Source: Patescibacteria group bacterium
GTDB taxonomy: Bacteria; Patescibacteriota; Patescibacteriia; JAHJFT01
Length of the DNA: 64,000 nucleotides
Assembly: GCA_028710985.1 (NCBI GenBank)
Contig: JAQTTB010000001.1
Location: forward strand, 523,014 to 587,013
Direction of reading: 5' to 3'
Position numbers and translations under genes: made by a program. Of this stretch, positions 3,826 through 48,574 are shown in pieces (within the stretch, counting starts at the first letter, position 1; each line of letters opens with the position of its first letter). The notes beneath the pieces are model-generated. The model saw only the letters and a program-made list of their open reading frames with translations. It searched no databases and was not told the DNA's origin.

Positions 3826-5019
3826 ATGATACAAGACACTCAAAAACGCCAGGTGACGCGTAAGCCAGTCGCCCATATCGTAAAACAGCGTCCGCCCGCG
3901 GTACGCCTGTACCGCCGGATTGCTATCAGTTTTTTGATTCTGACAATTTTATTACTCGCCTTGGTGGCCTATCTTTCATTCTCTAGCGCCCATATTAAGA
4001 TATTCACGGCCGCCGAAACTGCAAGCGCTGAGTTTGTGGCCGACATCGTCAAGGTGGCGAGCGCGCCTAATCAGGTTGAGGGTAGGATCGTTGAGCGAAT
4101 ATTTGAAAAATCAAAAGAATTTACGCCGTCGGGCGAAGGCAAGACAACGCCAGCCAAGGCCGGCGGGGAAGTAACCATTATTAATAAATATAATAAAGAT
4201 CAGGCGCTCATTGCGACGACGCGTCTTCAGGCGACGGACGGAAAAATTTTTCGTATCGATAAGAGCGTCGTTGTACCGGCCGGCGGCGAGATAAAGGCGA
4301 CTGCTCATGCCGACAAAGAGGGCGCGGAATATGAAATCGGGCCGTCTCATTTCATTATCCCCGGGCTCTGGGAAGGGTTGCGTGACAAGATCTATGCCGA
4401 ATCCGCTTCTCCGATGACCGGCGGAACCGTAACTTTGAAAGTAGTGAGCGCCGACGATCTCACTCGCGCCGAGTCGGAGCTTGCAAGTGAAATATTAGAG
4501 CAGGTCAAGGCCGATTTAATCAGCGAGAACGCGGATCCGCGTTTCTCCAAACCGGTTTTTTCAATTGAAACGTTGGAAAAAGTTTCAGACACAATTCCTG
4601 GGCAGGAGGCTGACAAATTCACAATCAAGCTTAAGGTCAAGGTTATTGCGGTTTTCTATAATGCCGAACAAATGGACGGCGTGATGGCGTCCAAACTAGA
4701 GGAGGCCATGGATAGTGATCACACGCTCGGTGACATCATGGAAGACAGTATTATCTTCACGATTGGCCGCTATGATTCATCAACCGGAATTGTTAATCTC
4801 GCAGTGAGCGCGTTCGGCGAGGCGCGCCTCAAAGAGAACAGCCGGCTTTTGGACAAGCGGAAAATTACCGGCCTTGGCGTGGATGACGCTAAAAAGTATC
4901 TTATGAGTTCGCCGTCAATTGAGAATGTCGAAATTTCCTCAAGCCCGTTCTGGCTCAAGCGCGTCCCGAATTTGGAAGATCATATTGAATATGAAATAAT
5001 TTATGGAGGGACTGAATAA
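3826..5019 (+). CDS. Hypothetical membrane-anchored protein with one N-terminal TM helix and an extracytoplasmic domain.
   Basis: 397-aa ORF with a single N-terminal hydrophobic helix (ISFLILTILLLALVAYLSF). No recognised domain. Confidence 0.5.
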   Translation: MIQDTQKRQVTRKPVAHIVKQRPPAVRLYRRIAISFLILTILLLALVAYLSFSSAHIKIFTAAETASAEFVADIVKVASAPNQVEGRIVERIFEKSKEFTPSGEGKTTPAKAGGEVTIINKYNKDQALIATTRLQATDGKIFRIDKSVVVPAGGEIKATAHADKEGAEYEIGPSHFIIPGLWEGLRDKIYAESASPMTGGTVTLKVVSADDLTRAESELASEILEQVKADLISENADPRFSKPVFSIETLEKVSDTIPGQEADKFTIKLKVKVIAVFYNAEQMDGVMASKLEEAMDSDHTLGDIMEDSIIFTIGRYDSSTGIVNLAVSAFGEARLKENSRLLDKRKITGLGVDDAKKYLMSSPSIENVEISSSPFWLKRVPNLEDHIEYEIIYGGTE

Positions 5020-5024
5020 AAATT

Positions 5025-6818
5025 ATGGAAAAACATGACAAATTAGAAATCATGCGCCATTCGGCCGCCCATGTCATGGCCGCGGCCGTACAAAAACTTT
5101 TTCCGGATGCCAAGTTCGGCATCGGTCCGGTAATTGAGTGCGGTTTTTATTATGATTTTGACATCAGAGAGAATCTCACGCCCGAACATTTGGAGAAGAT
5201 AGAGAAAGAGATGGAGAAGATTATTAAAGAAAAAATTGAGTTTGAGCGCGAGGAAATGGATATCGAATCAGCTATCAATCTGTTCAAAAAACTTGGCCAG
5301 GATTACAAAGTTGAGCTTCTCCGCGATATCAAAGAGAAGGGCACTACGAAATTCAAATCCAGCGAAGAGCAGGAGCTCGTGCAGGAAGGAGAAAAAATTT
5401 CAATTTACCGCACCGGCGATTTCGTTGATCTCTGCCGCGGCCCTCATGTCAAAAATACTGGTGAAATAAAAGTCTTCAAACTTCTGAATCTTGCCGGAGC
5501 CTATTGGCGCGGTTCGGAAAAGAACCCCATGCTCCAGCGCATTTACGCCACGGCCTGGGAAAAACAGAAAGATCTGGACGAGTATCTTCGCGTCCAGGAA
5601 GAGGCCACCAAGCGCGACCACCGCAAGCTCGGCAAAGAGCTGGATATTTTCATATTCAACGAAAACATCGGCAAGGGCCTGCCTCTCTTATTGCCGAACG
5701 GCCGCGTTCTACGCGATGAGATTCTTAAGCTCGAGCGCGAGATTGAAGACACAGTCGGCTTTGAAAGGGTCTGGACTCCGCAAATCGCGAAAAGTGATCT
5801 CTACAAGCTCACTGGTCACTGGGACCATTATCAAGACACCATGTTTCCAGCTTTCGGCATGGAGGACGAAACCTACGTGCTCCGGCCGATGAACTGCCCG
5901 CATCACTACATGATTTATAAAAACAAGCCGCACAGCTACCGCGAACTGCCGCTGCGCATCACCGAAGACGGAACCTGCTATCGTTTTGAAAAATCCGGTG
6001 AACTCGGCGGACTCGCGCGCGTGCGCTGCCTTACAATTGATGACGCCCACATTTTTATTATGCCGAGCCAGATTGAAGAAGAATACCCGCGCCTCATCGG
6101 CATGGCGAAAAAGATGTTTGATGCGTTCCAACTCAAAGACTATTATGTCCGGCTTTCCACGCACGATCCGGAGAACACGGAAAAATATATTTCCGACCAG
6201 AATACCTGGAACAAGGCCGAAGCCCTGCTGGAAAAAATCGTCAAAGCGAATAACATCAAGTATGTTATCGGCAAGGGCGAAGCCGCCTTCTACGGGCCAA
6301 AGCTCGATTTCATCGTTCACGACGCCATCGGCCGCGAATGGCAGATGTCCACGCTTCAGATCGATTTCTTCATGGCCGAGCGGCTTGGCATGACTTATAT
6401 TGATGATAAGGGACAAGACGCTTATCCCATCATCATTCACCGTGGGTTCACCGGTTCACTTGAGCGCACCATCGCCATGCTGATTGAGCATTTCAGCGGC
6501 GCTTTTCCGGTCTGGCTCGCACCGGTTCAGGTGAAACTCATACCGGTCGGAGCCGGGCACATTGATTTTTGCGCCGCTTTGCACAAAGAATTTTTATCCC
6601 TGGGCATTCGTTCGCGCGTTGATGATGCCAATGAAACCGTGGGCAATAAAATCCGCAAGGCGGAAAAAGAAAAAGTACCCTACATGCTCGTGGTCGGGGA
6701 TAAAGAAATGAGCGGAGAAGAAATGACCGTCCGCGTTCGGGGAGAAAAGGACCAGATCAAGATGGCCAAGCCGGAATTTACAGAAAAAATCCTCGGCGAG
6801 ATAAAGAACCGGACATAA
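5025..6818 (+). CDS. thrS: Threonyl-tRNA synthetase (short N-terminus)
   Basis: 597 aa. The N-terminal editing/second-additional-domain motif HSAAHVMAAAVQKLFP is followed by a class II aaRS core and a C-terminal anticodon-binding domain. Confidence 0.9.
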   Translation: MEKHDKLEIMRHSAAHVMAAAVQKLFPDAKFGIGPVIECGFYYDFDIRENLTPEHLEKIEKEMEKIIKEKIEFEREEMDIESAINLFKKLGQDYKVELLRDIKEKGTTKFKSSEEQELVQEGEKISIYRTGDFVDLCRGPHVKNTGEIKVFKLLNLAGAYWRGSEKNPMLQRIYATAWEKQKDLDEYLRVQEEATKRDHRKLGKELDIFIFNENIGKGLPLLLPNGRVLRDEILKLEREIEDTVGFERVWTPQIAKSDLYKLTGHWDHYQDTMFPAFGMEDETYVLRPMNCPHHYMIYKNKPHSYRELPLRITEDGTCYRFEKSGELGGLARVRCLTIDDAHIFIMPSQIEEEYPRLIGMAKKMFDAFQLKDYYVRLSTHDPENTEKYISDQNTWNKAEALLEKIVKANNIKYVIGKGEAAFYGPKLDFIVHDAIGREWQMSTLQIDFFMAERLGMTYIDDKGQDAYPIIIHRGFTGSLERTIAMLIEHFSGAFPVWLAPVQVKLIPVGAGHIDFCAALHKEFLSLGIRSRVDDANETVGNKIRKAEKEKVPYMLVVGDKEMSGEEMTVRVRGEKDQIKMAKPEFTEKILGEIKNRT

Positions 6819-44047: not shown

Positions 44048-44452
44048 ATGGCAGAAGAGAAAAAAGACGTCGTGGTTCCGGAAAAATTCAAGAAGCTCGT
44101 TGAGGAAGTTGAAAAAATGAGCGTACTTGATCTCTCGGAACTCGTTAGCATTCTTGAGGATAAATTCGGCGTTTCGGCCGCCGCTCCGGCAGTTGCCGTT
44201 GCCGCCGCCGCTCCAGTCGCCGCCGAAGCCGCCGATGAAAAGACCGAGTTCAATCTTGAACTCCTTGAAGCCGGCGCCAACAAGATCAACGTGATTAAGG
44301 TGGTTCGTGAAGTCACGGGTTTAGGCCTCGCCGATGCCAAGGCCATCGTTGACAGCGCACCGAAGATAGTGAAAGAAGCCATGCCAAAGGCTGATGCCGA
44401 AGCCGCCAAAAAGAAGATTGAGGAAGCCGGCGGAAAAGCAGCTCTCAAATAA
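44048..44452 (+). CDS. rplL: 50S ribosomal protein L7/L12
   Basis: An Ala-rich hinge and a C-terminal domain [28 protein letters not shown]. Confidence 0.9.
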
Positions 44453-44465
44453 TTGGTTACAAAAT

Positions 44466-44506
44466 AAAAAAAGAACGGCCGTGTAATTATGCGGCCGTTC
44501 TTTTGA
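44466..44506. terminator. Terminator/palindrome aaaataaaaaaagaacggccg-tgtaattatg-cggccgttctttt. It is the left copy of a pair.
   Basis: Read directly. Its 21-nt left arm is identical to the one at 46296. Confidence 0.6.
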
Positions 44507-44554
44507 TTTTTTTAAAAAAAGAGGCATCGCGTTTGCGATGCCCGAGCGGCGTAG

Positions 44555-45460
44555 TTAAATACCGAGTTTTCTTAATGCCCTCAGTCCGTTAAAGCGGTCG
44601 ACGAGCTTGGTTTCAGTGCGGTTGTGCGGAGCACAGTATTCGGTCGCCCCCCAGAAAGCGCCCATCATGCCAGCGGCCTGGGCAAAATTTGCACGGCCGC
44701 GTTTGACCGAGTACAGGCGGCCGCGTATCTTGCGCAGATAGTGCCGCGGGATAAAGATGCGGCTGGTCTTATCCATGGCAATGCCGTTGATGACCACCGG
44801 AGCCTTTTGGATGTCGCGGACAATGGATTTCTTATGGTTGATCTGGAATCCAGCCGCGAGAATGATGCGCCGTATCATCTGCCGCTTTCTTTTGCCGATC
44901 GGTTCAGTCGCCGAAAAGGTCAGGTCGTCGAGATAGCGCGTATAGATGATGCCGTGGCGCCGGCAGAATTCGCCGAGCGGCCGGTCAAGAAGTTCGCCGG
45001 CATAGCGGTTGGCAAGATCCGGCGAAGCCGGCGCGCCGGTTGCGAGCCCACCCTCGTCTGCTATGCAGTACTTATTAAGAAAGGCGAGAAGCCCTGTCTC
45101 GTCCTCCATCAGCCGTTCGTCAAGATTCATGAGTATCCCGGCGAGCCGCTCGGCGTCCACGCTCGGATAGAAATTGTGGATGTCGGTGAGGTAGAAAAAG
45201 CGGTTGCCGCGGTGCCGGAGCACATTTTTCTTGGGGGATGAGCCGCGCATCGCGCCGGTGGCGTGCGGCAGGGGATGGTGCTCGAGAAGGTGGCGCCGCA
45301 AGTAAAAGATTAGCCCGCGGTGGACCTGGCGCATCGCGTTATTTGGCGCGTAGAGCGTGCGCATTTTTACGGTCTTCGCTACCGGATTTACGTCTCTGTA
45401 GGTAAATTTGTTGAACCCCGGAGTCCCATCTATGTTTTTCAGAATTATATCAAAGAGCAT
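44555..45460 (-). CDS. Retron-type reverse transcriptase
   Basis: An internal ATG at 45460 carries a TAAGGAGGG RBS. The motifs match the order seen in retron Ec86 RT: KMRTLYAPNNAMRQVHRGL, LTDIHNFYPSV, LATGAPASPDLANRY, GIIYTRYLDDLTFS (YxDD), FQINHKKS and VVINGIAM. The length is about 300 aa. The ORF-track N-terminal extension to 45880 reads through non-coding repeats. Confidence 0.8.
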   Translation of the reverse strand: MLFDIILKNIDGTPGFNKFTYRDVNPVAKTVKMRTLYAPNNAMRQVHRGLIFYLRRHLLEHHPLPHATGAMRGSSPKKNVLRHRGNRFFYLTDIHNFYPSVDAERLAGILMNLDERLMEDETGLLAFLNKYCIADEGGLATGAPASPDLANRYAGELLDRPLGEFCRRHGIIYTRYLDDLTFSATEPIGKRKRQMIRRIILAAGFQINHKKSIVRDIQKAPVVINGIAMDKTSRIFIPRHYLRKIRGRLYSVKRGRANFAQAAGMMGAFWGATEYCAPHNRTETKLVDRFNGLRALRKLGI

Positions 45461-45537
45461 GGCGCCCTCCTTATAGATTTTTGTGTAGGTTGATTTTAGT
45501 ACAGCGCCGAATAAAATGCAAGTAAATTTTTTTGGTA

Positions 45538-45900
45538 TAAAAAACGCATCAAACCAGGGGTTTGACGCGAAGGGAGAAACCCGATTTTCATCGGGCAGTG
45601 AATTCACAGCGGCGGGTTGGCCAAGTTCGTTGCCCGATTCTGGGTTCTGCGGACAACGATCAAGAGAACAGACTTTGCCGCTGAGGCTTCGATGCAGGGC
45701 CGAAACGGCAGCGCCGAGGCCGCAGGCCGGGGCGCCCTCTGTGCCGAAAGAAGAAGAGAAGGGGCGGATACTATGGCAATTTCCGTTTCCGGAAATCCCG
45801 CTGGCGCACCTTGATGCGCCAACCCTCGTGGGCAAGAGCACTTTGGCGTCCAGCCAGAACCAGGAAACCGTCTTGGCCAACCCGGACTGGACTTGGCTTT
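45538..45900 (-). ncRNA. Structured non-coding RNA unit 1, a candidate retron msr-msd-like RNA
   Basis: a1/a2-like long-range complement gggttggccaag (45613-45624) / cttggccaaccc (45872-45883). Hairpin cccga-N-tcggg. A terminal hairpin gcatcaaa...tttgacgc next to an A/T run. Homologous to unit 2 with compensatory changes. Confidence 0.4.
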
Positions 45901-45911
45901 ATCCTATCATA

Positions 45912-46295
45912 AACAAAAAAACGCATCAAACCAGGGGGTTTGATGCGAAGAGAGAGAGTCCCGACTCGGTCGGGAAGAAAGTGCAGCGGCGGGTTTGAGT
46001 CATTGTCCGCAAGGGACTTTCCGGGCATGGGAGCTTGCCGCTGAAGATACCCGTGGCGTCCGAGGGCACTGAACAACGGGCCGAATCAGCCACTGCGGCC
46101 GCTGATCCGCCTCATGCAGATACCAACGGGAGCGCTTCGGGTTGCCCAGGGGCGATGGGGTACTGTTCAAAGCCCTGGTTTAACCCTTTGGCGCACCTGA
46201 AATGCGCCAAGACGATGAGCACCGAGGATCTCACCCGGAATGAACTAGCTCAAACCCAGCCAAGGTGGCTATGAAGAGGGTAGCATAAAATTCAA
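45912..46295 (-). ncRNA. Structured non-coding RNA unit 2, tandem paralog of unit 1
   Basis: a1/a2-like complement cgggtttgag (45992-46001) / ctcaaaccc (46250-46258). Hairpin cccgac-tcg-gtcggg. Terminal hairpin gcatcaaa...tttgatgc followed by an A/T run. Confidence 0.4.
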
Positions 46296-46336
46296 AATAA
46301 AAAAAGAACGGCCGCGATATCGTGGGCCGTTCTTTT
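46296..46336. terminator. Terminator/palindrome aaaataaaaaaagaacggccg-cgatatcgtg-ggccgttctttttt. It is the right copy of the pair.
   Basis: Read directly. Confidence 0.6.
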
Positions 46337-48574
46337 TTATTCGCTGAATCCGAAATTCCAGACGCCGTTGTCGGCCAGCACCCAGATTTGGCGTGCCGTG
46401 CGATCGATGTAAAAACTTTTTATATTCTGCAGGTCGTTCAGGAGGTATTGAGTTTTGAGTTTACCGTCCTTGGCCAGTACTACAACACGTTTTCCGGCCG
46501 GGTCAAGAATAAATATATTGTCCGTACCCTCGGTCGTCCAAATTTGCGTCGCGCCCGTCAGCGCGGGATCAATGGTCGTAGCCGACCAGGATTGTTTTTC
46601 ACCGGTATAGAATTTATAAATTTCACCATTTGATTTCAGGGCGTAAATCGAGCCGTCAATCGTAATGGCGACTGCGTCCGAAAGATTGACATTCGCAGTT
46701 TTAATCCAGGCCGCGCCGGCCGCGAGCCCGGAATCGGGCGAGCGGTGCTGCTTAAATATTTGGTTCGCCGTGGTGTCCAAGACATAAATATTTGAATTCC
46801 AGCCGGCCGCGTCAATAAAGCTCTTTTGTTCGGCCGCGGCGGCGAGGGGAACGTCCCTCCACGAAAGTCCGGCCACGTCAATTTCCGAAGCCCCTGGGCG
46901 CTGGTCGAAAACCAAATATGAATTATCGCCGGATTTGTAAATCGCGGTAATGCTTTGTATATCCGCATTTTCCCAGTCAACTTCCTGCCAGGCATTCGCG
47001 TCGTCGCGCCAGACATAAAGTTCTTTTGCCCCGGAAAGAATCAAAGTTTTATCGGCGTTTCGCAGGAGATAACGAAAGTTAATCGTCTGGCCTTCGGCGC
47101 TGAGCGGCATGTCGGCGACTTTCTCTAAATCGTTTGGAATGACTTCATGGCGGAGCTCTTGGCGTAAAATATCAATTTGGGCGAGAAGTCCCTGTTTGAT
47201 TTCGCGCTGATCGCGCTTTGCTTCCGGTAGCGACTGGATTGCGGATAGCGCTTGGCTCACAAGCTCACGCGTGCGTTCCTCGTCGCCGTAGATCAGGGTA
47301 CTCTCGGCCTCGTCTTTTATTTGAGTGATCTCAATCACTTTATTATTATAAACCGCCTCGTCTTCGCGTGCATGTTTCCGATAGTTGAGATAAATCAGGC
47401 TCCATGCAAAAAGTAGCACCAGGATAAGGGCGATGATAAAAACCGATTTATTTTTCTTGCCGAGATGGCTGAACCAGCCGACCGAGCGGTCTCCGGTTTC
47501 CTGGGCATCGCTCTTATAGCTCGCGATGGTTTCGGCGCGTTTGCCGTGGAAGTTCGTAATGATAAAAAATAAGTTTTTGAAGAAGCGGCCGGTGATGCCG
47601 ATTGCGCGGAGCGTGATGGCACCGATCCAAATAAAGAATTTGGCAATGCTCCGGGGGAGTTCGCGCGGGGTTGGAGCGATTTTTTCCTCATATTTCGGGC
47701 CGCGTATTGGTATCAGTCGTGAAATTACCGCAGTGAGCCCAGCCCAAATCTTTGAGGCAAACCCAGTGCCGCCGCCTAAAAGATATCGGTCGGTTTCCGC
47801 GGTAGTCGCCTTAAGATGCTCAAGCGAACCTCGGAAATTCTTCGGTGCCGCCGCTTCGGTGCCGACCGGGATAAGTTCTTCATAATGCTGGATGATAATG
47901 GCCGTATATCCGCCGCGCAGACTGCCGTGCAAAAGTTCATTGCGCAGATATTCGACGGATTCGACCGGTTTTTTCGCGGTTACAATCGGCAACAGCCGTT
48001 CTTCGGGGAAGGCTTCGGCCAGTTCGGAGTTTGAGATTATTATGGCATCCCCGCTTTGGATGGAGCCGTACATTACATTTTCAAAAATTTTAACGGGATT
48101 AAAATTATCCGGATCGGATTGAACGTTCTTCGTAAGATCAAAAACGCGGTAACCTTTGCCATCCTGCTTCTGGAAAAACATCATTTTATTCTGGCCGATC
48201 GCGGAGAACGAAAGGTCCGTGCCGGAGCAAGCGGCGATTAAGATATTCAATTTCTTAAGATCCACCGGATTGGATTCTTTGGAGATAAAATCCGTGATAT
48301 TTTTATTGGTCGCCTGTAGGGATTTTTCAAACTCCGCGCCAAAGTCAATGCCATGCTCTTCCTGATAAAATTTTTCAATGCCGTCGATAAAGTTTTCGGT
48401 CAAACGTTCGTAGGCTGGATGGATGGAGTCGATTTTAATAATGCCAAAAATAGATCCGCCTTCATGCGCCGCACCCGGTGGAATTTCAAAATTAAAAACG
48501 CGGTTAATGCATTGGCGGTTCGTTGCGCTTTCTAGGAAAAGCTCGTTTATGAGTATCTCCGGCTTCTTTGACAT
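46337..48574 (-). CDS. Large hypothetical membrane protein. It has an N-terminal cytoplasmic domain, a central TM helix and a C-terminal extracytoplasmic beta-rich domain.
   Basis: 745 aa. The central helix is SVFIIALILVLLFAWSLIYLNY. No confident domain assignment. Confidence 0.5.
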   Translation of the reverse strand: MSKKPEILINELFLESATNRQCINRVFNFEIPPGAAHEGGSIFGIIKIDSIHPAYERLTENFIDGIEKFYQEEHGIDFGAEFEKSLQATNKNITDFISKESNPVDLKKLNILIAACSGTDLSFSAIGQNKMMFFQKQDGKGYRVFDLTKNVQSDPDNFNPVKIFENVMYGSIQSGDAIIISNSELAEAFPEERLLPIVTAKKPVESVEYLRNELLHGSLRGGYTAIIIQHYEELIPVGTEAAAPKNFRGSLEHLKATTAETDRYLLGGGTGFASKIWAGLTAVISRLIPIRGPKYEEKIAPTPRELPRSIAKFFIWIGAITLRAIGITGRFFKNLFFIITNFHGKRAETIASYKSDAQETGDRSVGWFSHLGKKNKSVFIIALILVLLFAWSLIYLNYRKHAREDEAVYNNKVIEITQIKDEAESTLIYGDEERTRELVSQALSAIQSLPEAKRDQREIKQGLLAQIDILRQELRHEVIPNDLEKVADMPLSAEGQTINFRYLLRNADKTLILSGAKELYVWRDDANAWQEVDWENADIQSITAIYKSGDNSYLVFDQRPGASEIDVAGLSWRDVPLAAAAEQKSFIDAAGWNSNIYVLDTTANQIFKQHRSPDSGLAAGAAWIKTANVNLSDAVAITIDGSIYALKSNGEIYKFYTGEKQSWSATTIDPALTGATQIWTTEGTDNIFILDPAGKRVVVLAKDGKLKTQYLLNDLQNIKSFYIDRTARQIWVLADNGVWNFGFSE

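What the first reader, a model, noticed from the sequence alone, without database searches (positions are those of the whole stretch)
45538..46295. Two tandem, divergent, structurally covarying ncRNA units upstream of the RT (candidate double msr-msd)
Two adjacent units of about 370 nt are roughly 75% identical and share the same architecture.

First, both have a terminal hairpin next to an A/T run: gcatcaaa-cca(g)4-5-tttga(c/t)gc. In the RT-sense (minus) strand this reads as hairpin plus U-run, and the single mismatch in unit 1 becomes a G-U pair only on that strand.

Second, both have a short second hairpin that differs in sequence but keeps pairing: cccga-ttttca-tcggg versus cccgac-tcg-gtcggg.

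Third, both have a long-range complementary pair enclosing about 260 nt, and its sequence differs between units while complementarity is kept: gggttggccaag/cttggccaaccc versus gggtttgag/ctcaaaccc. That is exactly the a1/a2 arrangement of retron msr-msd RNAs.

Fourth, both share a conserved internal hairpin ggcgcacc-N-tgcgcc.

Compensatory changes in three separate stems argue strongly for a functional RNA rather than drifted DNA. A retron with two non-identical template RNAs in tandem, each with its own terminator, has not been described to my knowledge.
Basis: seen in the sequence. Interest (0 to 1): 0.9.

Follow-up and report, generated by a model that had tools for sequence, protein, structure and literature searches.

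The report
Twin RNA genes beside retron-like RT
Beside a small retron-type reverse transcriptase in a candidate-phyla-radiation bacterium lie two diverged copies of a roughly 355-nt structured RNA gene from an RNA family absent from Rfam 15; this family accompanies the enzyme in dozens of related genomes, often in several copies, so one enzyme probably serves several RNAs.

Summary
The two units are real. They are 377-378 nt apart. Each ends in an intrinsic terminator on the RT (minus) strand, and each is closed by a long helix whose sequence differs between the units while staying complementary. Global identity is about 53%, not 75%; only some blocks are 78-96% identical.

The RT (44555-45460, minus) is retron-type but belongs to a separate clade seen almost only in Patescibacteria. 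A covariance model built only from relatives finds unit 1 on the right strand. It also finds the same core in 35 of 68 related loci, upstream of the RT, downstream of it, or both, in one to four copies. The core is a UGAGG motif followed by two adjacent hairpins. Nothing matches in Rfam 15. No effector gene is conserved nearby.

Best reading: two independently transcribed cognate RNAs of a new retron-like type, presumably primer-templates. Production of msDNA and a branching G are not shown.

Relatives have an empty site, so the whole 1.8-kb module is an insertion. It duplicated the terminator shared by rplL and its neighbour.

The parts
44460..44508 (.). Copy 1 of the duplicated bidirectional terminator (next to rplL); left boundary of the inserted module
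   Evidence: 49-nt direct repeat with 46293-46341, spacing 1833. Relatives have a single terminator at this site.
44522..44543 (-). Intrinsic terminator after the RT gene
   Evidence: Terminator scan, 9 pairs followed by a T-run.
44555..45460 (-). Retron-type reverse transcriptase, 301 aa, YLDD catalytic box
   Evidence: Pfam RVT_1 at 1.6e-10. PADLOC retron RT models at 1e-34 to 1e-23. PDB profile hits to the Ec83, Ec86 and Ec78 RTs at 1e-29 to 1e-21. N79-V-x-R-H83 and I224-N-G226 are conserved in the family alignment.
45539..45909 (-). Unit 1: ncRNA gene, about 355-nt transcript
   Evidence: Fold z-score -4.2. The independent model R1 hits 45776-45833 on the minus strand at 14.7 bits, E 0.0016.
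45539..45569 (-). Unit 1 terminator hairpin plus U-run
45580..45595 (-). Unit 1 small 3' hairpin, CCCGAUGAAAAUCGGG
45607..45612 (-). Unit 1 tail motif CCGCUG; it can pair with CAGCGG of the central motif
45613..45643 (-). Unit 1 closing helix P1, 3' strand (a2)
   Evidence: Inverted repeat I1. Cognate-pairing test: 12 bp with its own 5' region against at most 8 bp with any non-cognate one.
45677..45687 (-). Unit 1 central motif GCCUCAGCGGC
45746..45764 (-). Unit 1 U/C-rich tract, CCCCUUCUCUUCUUCUUUC
   Evidence: Equivalent tracts are seen in relatives.
45775..45799 (-). Unit 1 SL2, a hairpin capped by a GAAA tetraloop
45801..45822 (-). Unit 1 SL1 hairpin
45823..45830 (-). Unit 1 5' motif CACGAGGG, the family's UGAGG position
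   Evidence: R1 alignment.
45854..45884 (-). Unit 1 closing helix P1, 5' strand (a1)
45901..45909 (-). Unit 1 extended -10-like element, TGATAGGAT (inferred promoter)
   Evidence: Motif only. TGnTAnnnT lies upstream of 23 of 59 units, against 6 of 59 on the antisense control.
45916..46285 (-). Unit 2: diverged paralogous ncRNA gene
   Evidence: Fold z-score -4.0. Collinear with unit 1. Not detected by R1.
45916..45947 (-). Unit 2 terminator hairpin plus U-run
45960..45974 (-). Unit 2 small 3' hairpin
45984..45989 (-). Unit 2 tail motif CCGCUG
45990..45999 (-). Unit 2 closing helix, 3' strand (a2)
46037..46048 (-). Unit 2 central motif AUCUUCAGCGGC
46188..46210 (-). Unit 2 SL1 hairpin
46249..46258 (-). 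Unit 2 closing helix, 5' strand (a1)
46277..46285 (-). Unit 2 extended -10-like element, TGCTACCCT (inferred promoter)
   Evidence: Motif only.
46293..46341 (.). Copy 2 of the duplicated bidirectional terminator (next to the 745-aa gene); right boundary of the inserted module

Best explanation
The region holds two paralogous ncRNA genes on the minus strand. Each is about 355 nt. Each probably has its own extended -10 promoter and certainly has its own intrinsic terminator.

Both RNAs belong to a family not found in Rfam 15 or in the paper searches run here. That family is the cognate partner of a Patescibacteria-specific clade of small (about 300 aa) retron-type reverse transcriptases.

Shared architecture, 5' to 3':
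- a long closing helix P1 (a1/a2) whose sequence is free to vary;
- a 5' motif, UGAGG;
- two adjacent hairpins, SL1 and SL2, forming the conserved core and the likely RT-binding site, comparable to msr stem-loops;
- a variable insert, often carrying a U/C-rich tract (msd-like);
- a central motif, CCUCAGCGG;
- the 3' strand of P1;
- a tail, CCGCUG.

Inferred mechanism, by analogy with retrons: the RT binds the SL1-SL2 core of each RNA and reverse-transcribes part of the variable insert, with the helix junction setting the start site. One RT with two RNAs that share a core but differ in P1 and insert would then make two different cDNA products.

Shown: the RNAs, their strand, their structure, their family, and their linkage to the RT.
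Inferred: binding, templating, the priming chemistry, and the biological role.
For: - The RT is retron-type. PADLOC retron RT models score 1e-34 to 1e-23. A family profile hits solved retron RTs (Ec83 1.7e-29, Ec86 4e-28) far better than group II RTs (1e-8) or Drt2 (1e-6).
- The two residues that Mestre 2020 calls most conserved in retron regions X and Y (H and G) are invariant here.
- SL1 and SL2 covary. In 11 hand-picked units, 85% of cells are paired and 14 of 19 pairs change on both sides. In 65 distinct model hits, 90% of cells are paired and all 19 pairs change on both sides; sliding the partners drops pairing to 42-65%.
- Model R1, built without the window, finds unit 1 on the minus strand at the expected place.
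- 70 of the 75 hits in relatives lie on the RT strand.
- P1 is supported. The 13 nt directly 5' of the tail pair contiguously over a mean of 10.8 bp with their own 5' region, against 6.6 bp for non-cognate combinations (n=30). The a2 strand ends 0-2 nt before the tail in about 24 of 32 units.
- The inner pairings covary. In UGAGG:CCUCA the fourth pair is G-C in the main group and A-U in seven other units. In CAGCGG:CCGCUG the terminal pair is G-C, G.U, A-U or U-A.
- The minus strand carries the terminators.
- Multi-unit arrays recur, in L005, L006, L007, L009, L012 (four units), L016 and L018. L031 also shows two repeated units.
Against: - No experiment or transcriptome shows transcription, RT binding or cDNA.
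- No conserved G lies directly 3' of P1. The retron 'AGC' context appears at a fixed offset in only 12 of 47 units and in neither window unit.
- The RT scores below every curated retron cutoff (116 bits against 235).
- No effector gene is conserved, unlike characterised defence retrons.
- Unit 2 is not detected by R1. Its SL2 is replaced by a larger stem-loop, it lacks the U/C tract, and the homologous 5' motif is deleted.
- The UGAGG:CCUCA and CAGCGG:CCGCUG pairings overlap by two bases, so both cannot be fully formed at once. The fold of that junction is unresolved.
Confidence: 0.6

Rival explanations
1. The module (RT plus RNA units) is an autonomous or formerly autonomous mobile retroelement. 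The structured RNAs would be its cis-acting recognition, priming or integration elements rather than templates for a small msDNA. Tandem units would arise from RT-mediated re-copying.
For: - Relatives have an empty site. Orthologues of the 745-aa gene and rplL are separated by about 58 nt holding one terminator, whereas the window has 1.88 kb with that terminator duplicated on both sides.
- Other modules are bracketed by direct repeats of host sequence: L018 108 nt at 94% identity, L073 142 nt at 94%, L072 41 nt, L041 30 nt.
- Genomic contexts vary and no neighbouring gene is conserved.
- Gene order is permuted (RNA-RT, RT-RNA, RNA-RT-RNA).
- The module contains no integrase or transposase.
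Against: - Only 6 of 76 loci (5 distinct) show flanking repeats. The weaker three overlap the control range: controls gave 3 of 124, with a maximum score of 23.
- The RT has no endonuclease domain.
- No genome was shown to carry multiple near-identical copies.
- The -10-like element of unit 2 lies inside the insert, which does not fit a simple transcript copy.
- The two window units are only 53% identical, so the duplication is old and both copies have been kept.
Confidence: 0.2
2. Only unit 1 is functional, and unit 2 is a decaying duplicate. This is compatible with the best explanation for unit 1.
For: - R1 detects unit 1 but not unit 2.
- In unit 2, SL2 is replaced by a 48-nt stem-loop, there is no U/C tract, and 7 nt covering the homologous GAGG motif are deleted.
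Against: - Unit 2 keeps a strong terminator, a -10-like element, an identical SL1 stem, and intact central and tail motifs.
- It keeps a closing helix maintained by three double compensatory changes, plus a second inner helix (UUCCGGG/CCCGGAA). That is not what neutral decay at 53% identity would leave.
- Other loci carry several complete units.
Confidence: 0.3
3. The units are cis-regulatory leaders or attenuators that control transcription read-through into the RT gene.
For: - They lie upstream of the RT on the same strand.
- Each ends in a terminator.
Against: - In at least 9 related loci the same RNA lies downstream of the RT, and in 2 loci on both sides.
- Downstream-type units have their own TTGACA-17-TATAAT promoters.
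- In L001, L005, L007, L041 and L043 there is no terminator between the RNA and the RT.
Confidence: 0.04
4. A DRT2-like system: the RNA is copied by rolling-circle reverse transcription into a concatemer that encodes the missing effector.
For: - The architecture is RT plus ncRNA only, with no effector.
- A UGA-containing motif occurs both 5' of the core and in the 3' tail.
Against: - The RT matches Drt2 only at 5e-6 and 1e-6, against 1e-34 for retron models.
- The distance between the two motifs is a multiple of three in only 8 of 25 units, and stop-free concatemer frames are rare.
- The variable parts evolve by RNA-helix covariation, not by coding constraint.
Confidence: 0.03

Closest known systems
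Retrons (msr-msd ncRNA plus retron RT), especially the minimal 'orphan' Retron-Eco5 (Ec107)
   Same: - The RT is retron-type by HMM and by the region X and region Y hallmark residues.
- The ncRNA lies adjacent on the same strand, is closed by an inverted repeat, and has short stem-loops followed by a variable hairpin region.
- Ec107 is likewise a module of RT plus RNA only. It replaced a palindromic 34-bp intergenic sequence and most of its branch lacks an effector (PMC6868368; PMC7736814).
   Different: - The RT forms a separate clade: 40-50% identity within it, then a jump to E 1e-13 for St85-type RTs. It scores below all curated cutoffs.
- The motifs are NVxRH and ING rather than NAXXH and VTG.
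- The RNA is longer, at about 300-355 nt.
- The RNA carries conserved UGAGG, CCUCAGCGG and CCGCUG motifs with a pseudoknot-type pairing.
- It has its own promoter and terminator, can lie downstream of the RT, and occurs in one to four copies.
- No conserved branching G lies next to a1.
Retron-Nex1 (Ne160) of Nannocystis exedens, with duplicated msr-msd repeats
   Same: Several msr-msd-like copies in one genome region are already on record for a retron (PMC6868368).
   Different: - Those repeats are described as lying without an RT within a kilobase, and are interpreted as retrotransposed copies.
- Here the copies are directly next to the RT. Each has promoter-like and terminator signals and a helix maintained by compensatory change.
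DRT2 (UG2 RT plus pseudoknotted ncRNA, no protein effector gene)
   Same: - Two-component architecture of RT plus ncRNA.
- A structured RNA with a pseudoknot-type long-range pairing.
   Different: - The RT family differs.
- There is no sign of a repeat-encoded open reading frame.
Bacterial class C group II introns, which insert at intrinsic terminators (from my own knowledge, not checked here)
   Same: An RT-encoding insertion located at a terminator hairpin.
   Different: - No group II ribozyme domains were detected by Rfam.
- The RT matches group II RTs only at 1e-5 to 1e-8.
- Here the target terminator is duplicated.

Membership tests
Retron | RT belongs to the retron/retron-like lineage | tested here: met
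   Sixty-two PADLOC models match at E<=0.01; the 25 best listed are all retron RT models, best RT_II-A at 1.6e-34. The PDB profile's best hits are all retron RTs. It is not a member of any named type: NCBIfam retron_St85_RT scores 116 bits against a cutoff of 235.
Retron | Region X NAXXH motif and region Y VTG triplet in the RT (definitions from PMC7736814) | tested here: met
   The family alignment has N79 (nearly invariant)-V-x-R-H83 (invariant) between RT2 and RT3, and I224-N-G226 (G invariant) in RT7. These are variant letters, but the residues the paper calls most conserved (H and G) are kept.
Retron | ncRNA contiguous with the RT gene on the same strand | tested here: met
   Placement is flexible (upstream or downstream), which is atypical for retrons.
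Retron | Terminal inverted repeats a1/a2 closing the RNA | tested here: met
Retron | Short msr stem-loops that the RT recognises | tested here: met
   SL1 (9 bp) and SL2 (10 bp, capped by a GNRA or UNCG loop) covary strongly. RT binding itself was not tested.
Retron | Long msd hairpin used as template | tested here: inconclusive
   A variable stem-containing insert lies between SL2 and the central motif. No consistent single long hairpin could be defined, and templating is unknown.
Retron | Priming (branching) G in a conserved AGC context directly after a1 | tested here: inconclusive
   The bases after P1 are not conserved. AGC peaks 7-8 nt upstream of UGAGG in 12 of 47 units. Unit 2 has GAG|C at the end of a1 and unit 1 has AAG|A. 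The Gs of UGAGG are candidates.
Retron | Production of branched msDNA | not testable with these tools
   Needs expression and nucleic-acid analysis.
Retron | Associated effector gene (tripartite system) | tested here: not met
   All-against-all comparison of neighbouring ORFs across the 104 related loci and the window finds no conserved partner. PADLOC and Pfam find nothing in the 745-aa neighbour, and that gene sits at the same place in relatives that lack the module.
Retron | Match to a curated retron RNA model in Rfam | tested here: not met
   No Rfam 15 family matches the units at E<=10 in the window or at E<=1 in seven relatives.
DRT2 | UG2-type RT and a template whose concatemer gives a stop-free ORF | tested here: not met
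   Drt2 model at 5.4e-6 and 25.8 bits, against a cutoff of 390. No length bias towards multiples of three.
Diversity-generating retroelement (TR/VR pair) | Two repeats that differ mainly at adenines of the template, with one repeat inside a target gene | tested here: not met
   The 172 substitutions are spread evenly over all four bases, with 46 gapped columns as well. Both units are non-coding. The RT has the retron/group II-like SP motif rather than the DGR SQ motif (the motif rule is from my own knowledge).
Group II intron | Ribozyme domains, and an RT with maturase and endonuclease regions | tested here: not met
   No Rfam intron hit. The group II RT model scores 5.8e-5 and 22 bits, against a cutoff of 300.

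The most novel reading that the evidence does not exclude
The 1.3-1.8-kb module of RT plus RNA is a self-mobilising retron-like retroelement. It would insert at terminator hairpins and other sites while duplicating 30-140 bp of target. Its RNA-gene arrays would be made and diversified by the element's own reverse transcriptase. Apart from group II introns, that would be a new class of autonomous bacterial retroelement.
Probability: 0.2. Interest if true: 0.9.

Novelty: new variant of a known kind. Interest (0 to 1): 0.72.

Why it matters
- It defines a distinct, apparently effector-less retron-like clade that is widespread in Patescibacteria, whose RT content is otherwise described as mostly DGRs (PMC8632793).
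- It comes with an RNA family absent from Rfam 15 and from the paper searches run here.
- One small RT serving one to four RNAs that share a constant core but differ in closing helix and insert would be a natural multi-template arrangement. That bears on how retron RTs recognise their RNAs, and on multiplexed retron editing with a 300-aa enzyme.
- The empty-site evidence that the module is an insertion duplicating its target reopens the old question of how minimal retrons such as Ec107 move.

Tried and rejected
- nhmmer with each unit against 40 related loci found nothing, as did simple motif searches for the window's SL1 and CCGCCGC strings. The family is too diverged for sequence-only search.
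- R1 with default filters over the whole window missed unit 1. It needed filters off.
P1, P2 and the tail pairing were therefore tested with my own scripts.
- The DGR reading was rejected.
- The DRT2/Neo-like reading was rejected.
- The group II intron reading was rejected.
- The cis-attenuator reading was rejected because of the downstream units.
- A search for targets of the variable regions found no 13-mer from the units elsewhere in the 64-kb window, on either strand.
- tRNA genes next to modules occur in a few loci but not systematically.
- Weak Rfam hits at 44.4-44.6 kb and 46.3 kb are terminator look-alikes.
- Searches of the held paper library for retrons in Patescibacteria, CPR or Saccharibacteria found no description of this clade or RNA.
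Full report
**Observation.** The region 45538-46295 holds two collinear units. Direct-repeat families place equivalent points 377-378 nt apart. On the minus strand each unit ends in an 11-bp G+C-rich hairpin followed by a T-run. The terminator scan reports these hairpins only for the minus strand, at 45569->45545 and 45947->45922. A third minus-strand terminator sits just after the RT stop, at 44543->44522. The third stem pair of the terminal hairpin is G.U in unit 1 and A-U in unit 2 on the minus strand, and would be an A.C mismatch on the plus strand.

Both units fold better than shuffled sequence on the minus strand (z -4.2 and -4.0) than on the plus strand (z -2.4 and -2.9). The long-range closing pair is real in both. 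Unit 1 has 31-nt arms that are 81% complementary. Unit 2 pairs UGGGUUUGAG with CUCAAACCCG. Three positions carry double compensatory differences between the units.

First, global identity is 53% (196 of 368 aligned positions, plus 46 gapped columns), not about 75%. High similarity is confined to the terminator, the 3' tail and SL1. Second, the 'second hairpin' has the same stem (CCCGA/UCGGG) in both units, so it shows no compensation.

**The enzyme.** The ORF at 44555-45460 (minus strand; 301 aa; YLDD box) is an RT (Pfam RVT_1). It matches dozens of PADLOC retron RT models at 1e-34 to 1e-23 without favouring one. It falls below every NCBIfam cutoff; retron_St85_RT scores 116 bits against 235.

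A database search returns about 65 proteins at 40-50% identity. Where a source names them, nearly all are from Patescibacteria. After these, the E-value jumps to 1e-13 for St85-type retron RTs. A profile of the family hits solved retron RTs (Ec83 1.7e-29, Ec86 4e-28, Ec78, Ec67) far better than group II RTs (1e-8) or Drt2 (1e-6).

The family alignment keeps N79-V-x-R-H83 between RT2 and RT3, and I224-N-G226 in RT7. These positions correspond to the NAXXH and VTG hallmarks of retron RTs, and the residues Mestre et al. call most conserved (H and G) are invariant (PMC7736814). So this is a retron-type RT of a separate clade.

**The RNA family.** Sequence-only searches with the units found nothing in 40 related loci. 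Reading the upstream regions showed a shared architecture. From 5' to 3' it runs as follows:
- a closing helix P1 whose sequence differs everywhere;
- a 5' motif, YUGAGG;
- about 10 nt of spacer;
- a 9-bp hairpin, SL1;
- one nucleotide;
- a 10-bp hairpin, SL2, capped by a GNRA or UNCG tetraloop;
- a variable insert that often carries a U/C-rich tract;
- a central motif, RACCUCAGCGR;
- the 3' strand of P1;
- a tail, CCGCUG(A).

For the core, 11 units from 9 loci show 85% of cells paired, and 14 of 19 pairs change on both sides. SL1 alone is 96.9% paired.

A covariance model (R1) built from those units, without the window, finds unit 1 at 45776-45833 on the minus strand (14.7 bits, E 0.0016 in 2.1 kb, filters off). 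That is a modest score, but it is the top hit at the expected place and strand. R1 does not find unit 2.

Over 99 related loci R1 gives 75 hits at E<=1, of which 70 lie on the RT strand. In the resulting alignment (65 distinct sequences) 90% of cells are paired and all 19 pairs change on both sides. Sliding the partners drops pairing to 42-65%. That alignment is fitted to the model, so it leans towards the structure.

For P1, the 13 nt just 5' of the tail pair contiguously over a mean of 10.8 bp with their own 5' region, against 6.6 bp for non-cognate combinations (n=30). The a2 strand ends 0-2 nt before the tail in about 24 of 32 units.

Two inner pairings have some covariation. In UGAGG:CCUCA the fourth pair is G-C in the main group, A-U in seven units and G.U in three. 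In CAGCGG:CCGCUG the terminal pair is G-C, G.U, A-U or U-A, with seven mismatches. The second pairing is pseudoknotted relative to P1. The two overlap by two bases, so the junction fold is unresolved.

No Rfam 15 family matches the RNA in the window or in relatives.

**Arrangement across the clade.** Among 68 non-redundant loci with enough flank, 35 have a core hit of at least 18 bits. In 24 the RNA is upstream of the RT only, in 9 downstream only, and in 2 on both sides. Seven loci have two or more units, and L012 has four. L031 has two repeated units that R1 misses.

Units usually carry promoter-like elements directly upstream. TGnTAnnnT occurs before 23 of 59 units, against 6 of 59 in the antisense control. 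Downstream-type units have TTGACA-17-TATAAT. The window units have TGATAGGAT and TGCTACCCT at the equivalent place. In several loci the tail runs straight into the RT ribosome-binding site with no terminator.

Units within one array keep the core but have different P1 sequences. No neighbouring gene is conserved, so there is no dedicated effector.

**The two window units.** Unit 1 has every family element. Unit 2 keeps the terminator, the small 3' hairpin, the tail, the central motif (as AUCUUCAGCGGC), P1a, a second inner helix (UUCCGGG/CCCGGAA) and an identical SL1 stem. Its SL2 is a larger stem-loop, the U/C tract is absent, and the 7 nt that hold unit 1's GAGG are deleted. A UGAGAU further upstream could pair with AUC(U)UCA instead.

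At 53% identity, retention of these helices by compensatory change argues that unit 2 is maintained. It may nevertheless work differently, or less well.

**Mechanism.** The following are shown: two structured RNAs on the RT strand, their membership of an RT-linked family, and the retron-type nature of the RT. The following are inferred by analogy with retrons. The RT binds the SL1-SL2 core. It initiates at the junction formed by P1 and the conserved motifs. It copies part of the variable insert. Two RNAs would therefore give two cDNAs. I put 0.6 on this reading overall: about 0.9 for 'cognate RNA of the RT' and about 0.5 for retron-style templating and priming.

The retron signature of a priming G in an AGC context next to a1 (PMC6868368) is not clearly present.

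**Rivals.**
- DGR TR/VR pair: rejected, because there is no adenine bias and there are many indels.
- DRT2-like gene synthesis: no length bias towards multiples of three, and the RT family is wrong.
- Attenuator leader: contradicted by the downstream and promoter-bearing units.
- Decaying duplicate for unit 2: possible (0.3).
- Mobile-element reading: discussed next.

**Insertion.** The module is bracketed by a 49-nt imperfect direct repeat (44460-44508 and 46293-46341). This repeat is the bidirectional terminator of the convergent rplL and 745-aa genes. In relatives with orthologues of the 745-aa gene (61% and 57% identity), that gene abuts rplL across about 58 nt containing a single terminator. 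The 1784-bp module is therefore an insertion that duplicated its target.

Flanking direct repeats of host sequence also bracket modules in L018/L069 (108 nt, 94%, the 5' end of what looks by eye like a miaA gene), L073 (142 nt, 94%), L072 (41 nt) and L041 (30 nt). The last two are terminator-like hairpins. Six of 76 loci show such repeats, against 3 of 124 controls. Only the two longest clearly exceed the control scores.

This parallels Retron-Eco5 (Ec107), a minimal retron that replaced a palindromic 34-bp intergenic sequence (PMC6868368). It leaves open a self-mobilising retroelement, to which I give 0.2.

**Verdict.** The retron-like interpretation is partly supported. The object is best filed as a new variant of the retron kind: a distinct RT clade, an RNA architecture not in Rfam, no effector, independently transcribed RNA genes in variable number and position, and evidence of insertion. 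Searches of the held paper library found no prior description. Duplicated msr-msd copies as such are already recorded for Retron-Nex1.

Noticed in passing
window 44460-44508 and 46293-46341; L105 7233-7290; L107 5697-5753: The RT plus two-RNA module (44509-46292) is an insertion. Relatives have rplL and the 745-aa gene convergent across about 58 nt with one terminator. In the window that terminator is duplicated on both sides of the module: the stems are identical and the loops are 5/10 identical.
   Followed up: yes
L018 3320-3427 / 5008-5115; L073 1059-1200 / 2613-2753; L072 2849-2889 / 4392-4432; L041 701-730 / 2050-2079: Other modules of the same clade are bracketed by 30-142-nt direct repeats of host sequence. 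In L018 the repeat covers the 5' end of what looks by eye like a miaA gene (not checked against any library); the upstream copy is truncated and the downstream copy continues as an ORF. In L072 and L041 the repeats are terminator-like hairpins.
   Followed up: partly
L004, L014, L020, L024, L052, L057, L059, L063, L068, L071-L073, L083 (downstream); L005, L009 (both sides); L012 2846-3948 (four units): The RNA gene can lie downstream of the RT or on both sides, and in arrays of up to four. This amounts to a permuted order of RNA and RT genes across the clade.
   Followed up: partly
window 45746-45764 (minus strand) and the equivalent positions in relatives: A 10-19-nt U/C-rich tract follows SL2 in most units (for example CCCCUUCUCUUCUUCUUUC in unit 1) but is missing from unit 2. 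Its role is unknown; it could be a termination or hybrid site for cDNA synthesis.
   Followed up: no
window 46337-48574 (minus strand): A 745-aa ORF with no Pfam, NCBIfam or PADLOC match. It is conserved at 53-61% identity in other Patescibacteria at the same syntenic position next to rplL, so it is not linked to the RT module.
   Followed up: partly
12 of 47 units, e.g. L041, L044, L054, L057, L063, L071-L073, L083: A semi-conserved ACAGCYCC element lies 7-8 nt upstream of the UGAGG motif. It contains the AGC context reported for retron priming Gs. The window units have GUGCUC at a comparable place.
   Followed up: partly
L063 218-292; L071 1495-1566; L017 4949-5032; L027 3327-3549; L057 2713-2787: tRNA genes lie directly beside some modules, but not systematically.
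   Followed up: partly
window 44430-44580 and 46203-46367: Weak Rfam matches (STnc240, L20_leader, trpB, mir-6 and others, all far below their gathering scores) fall on the terminator hairpins and are look-alikes.
   Followed up: yes
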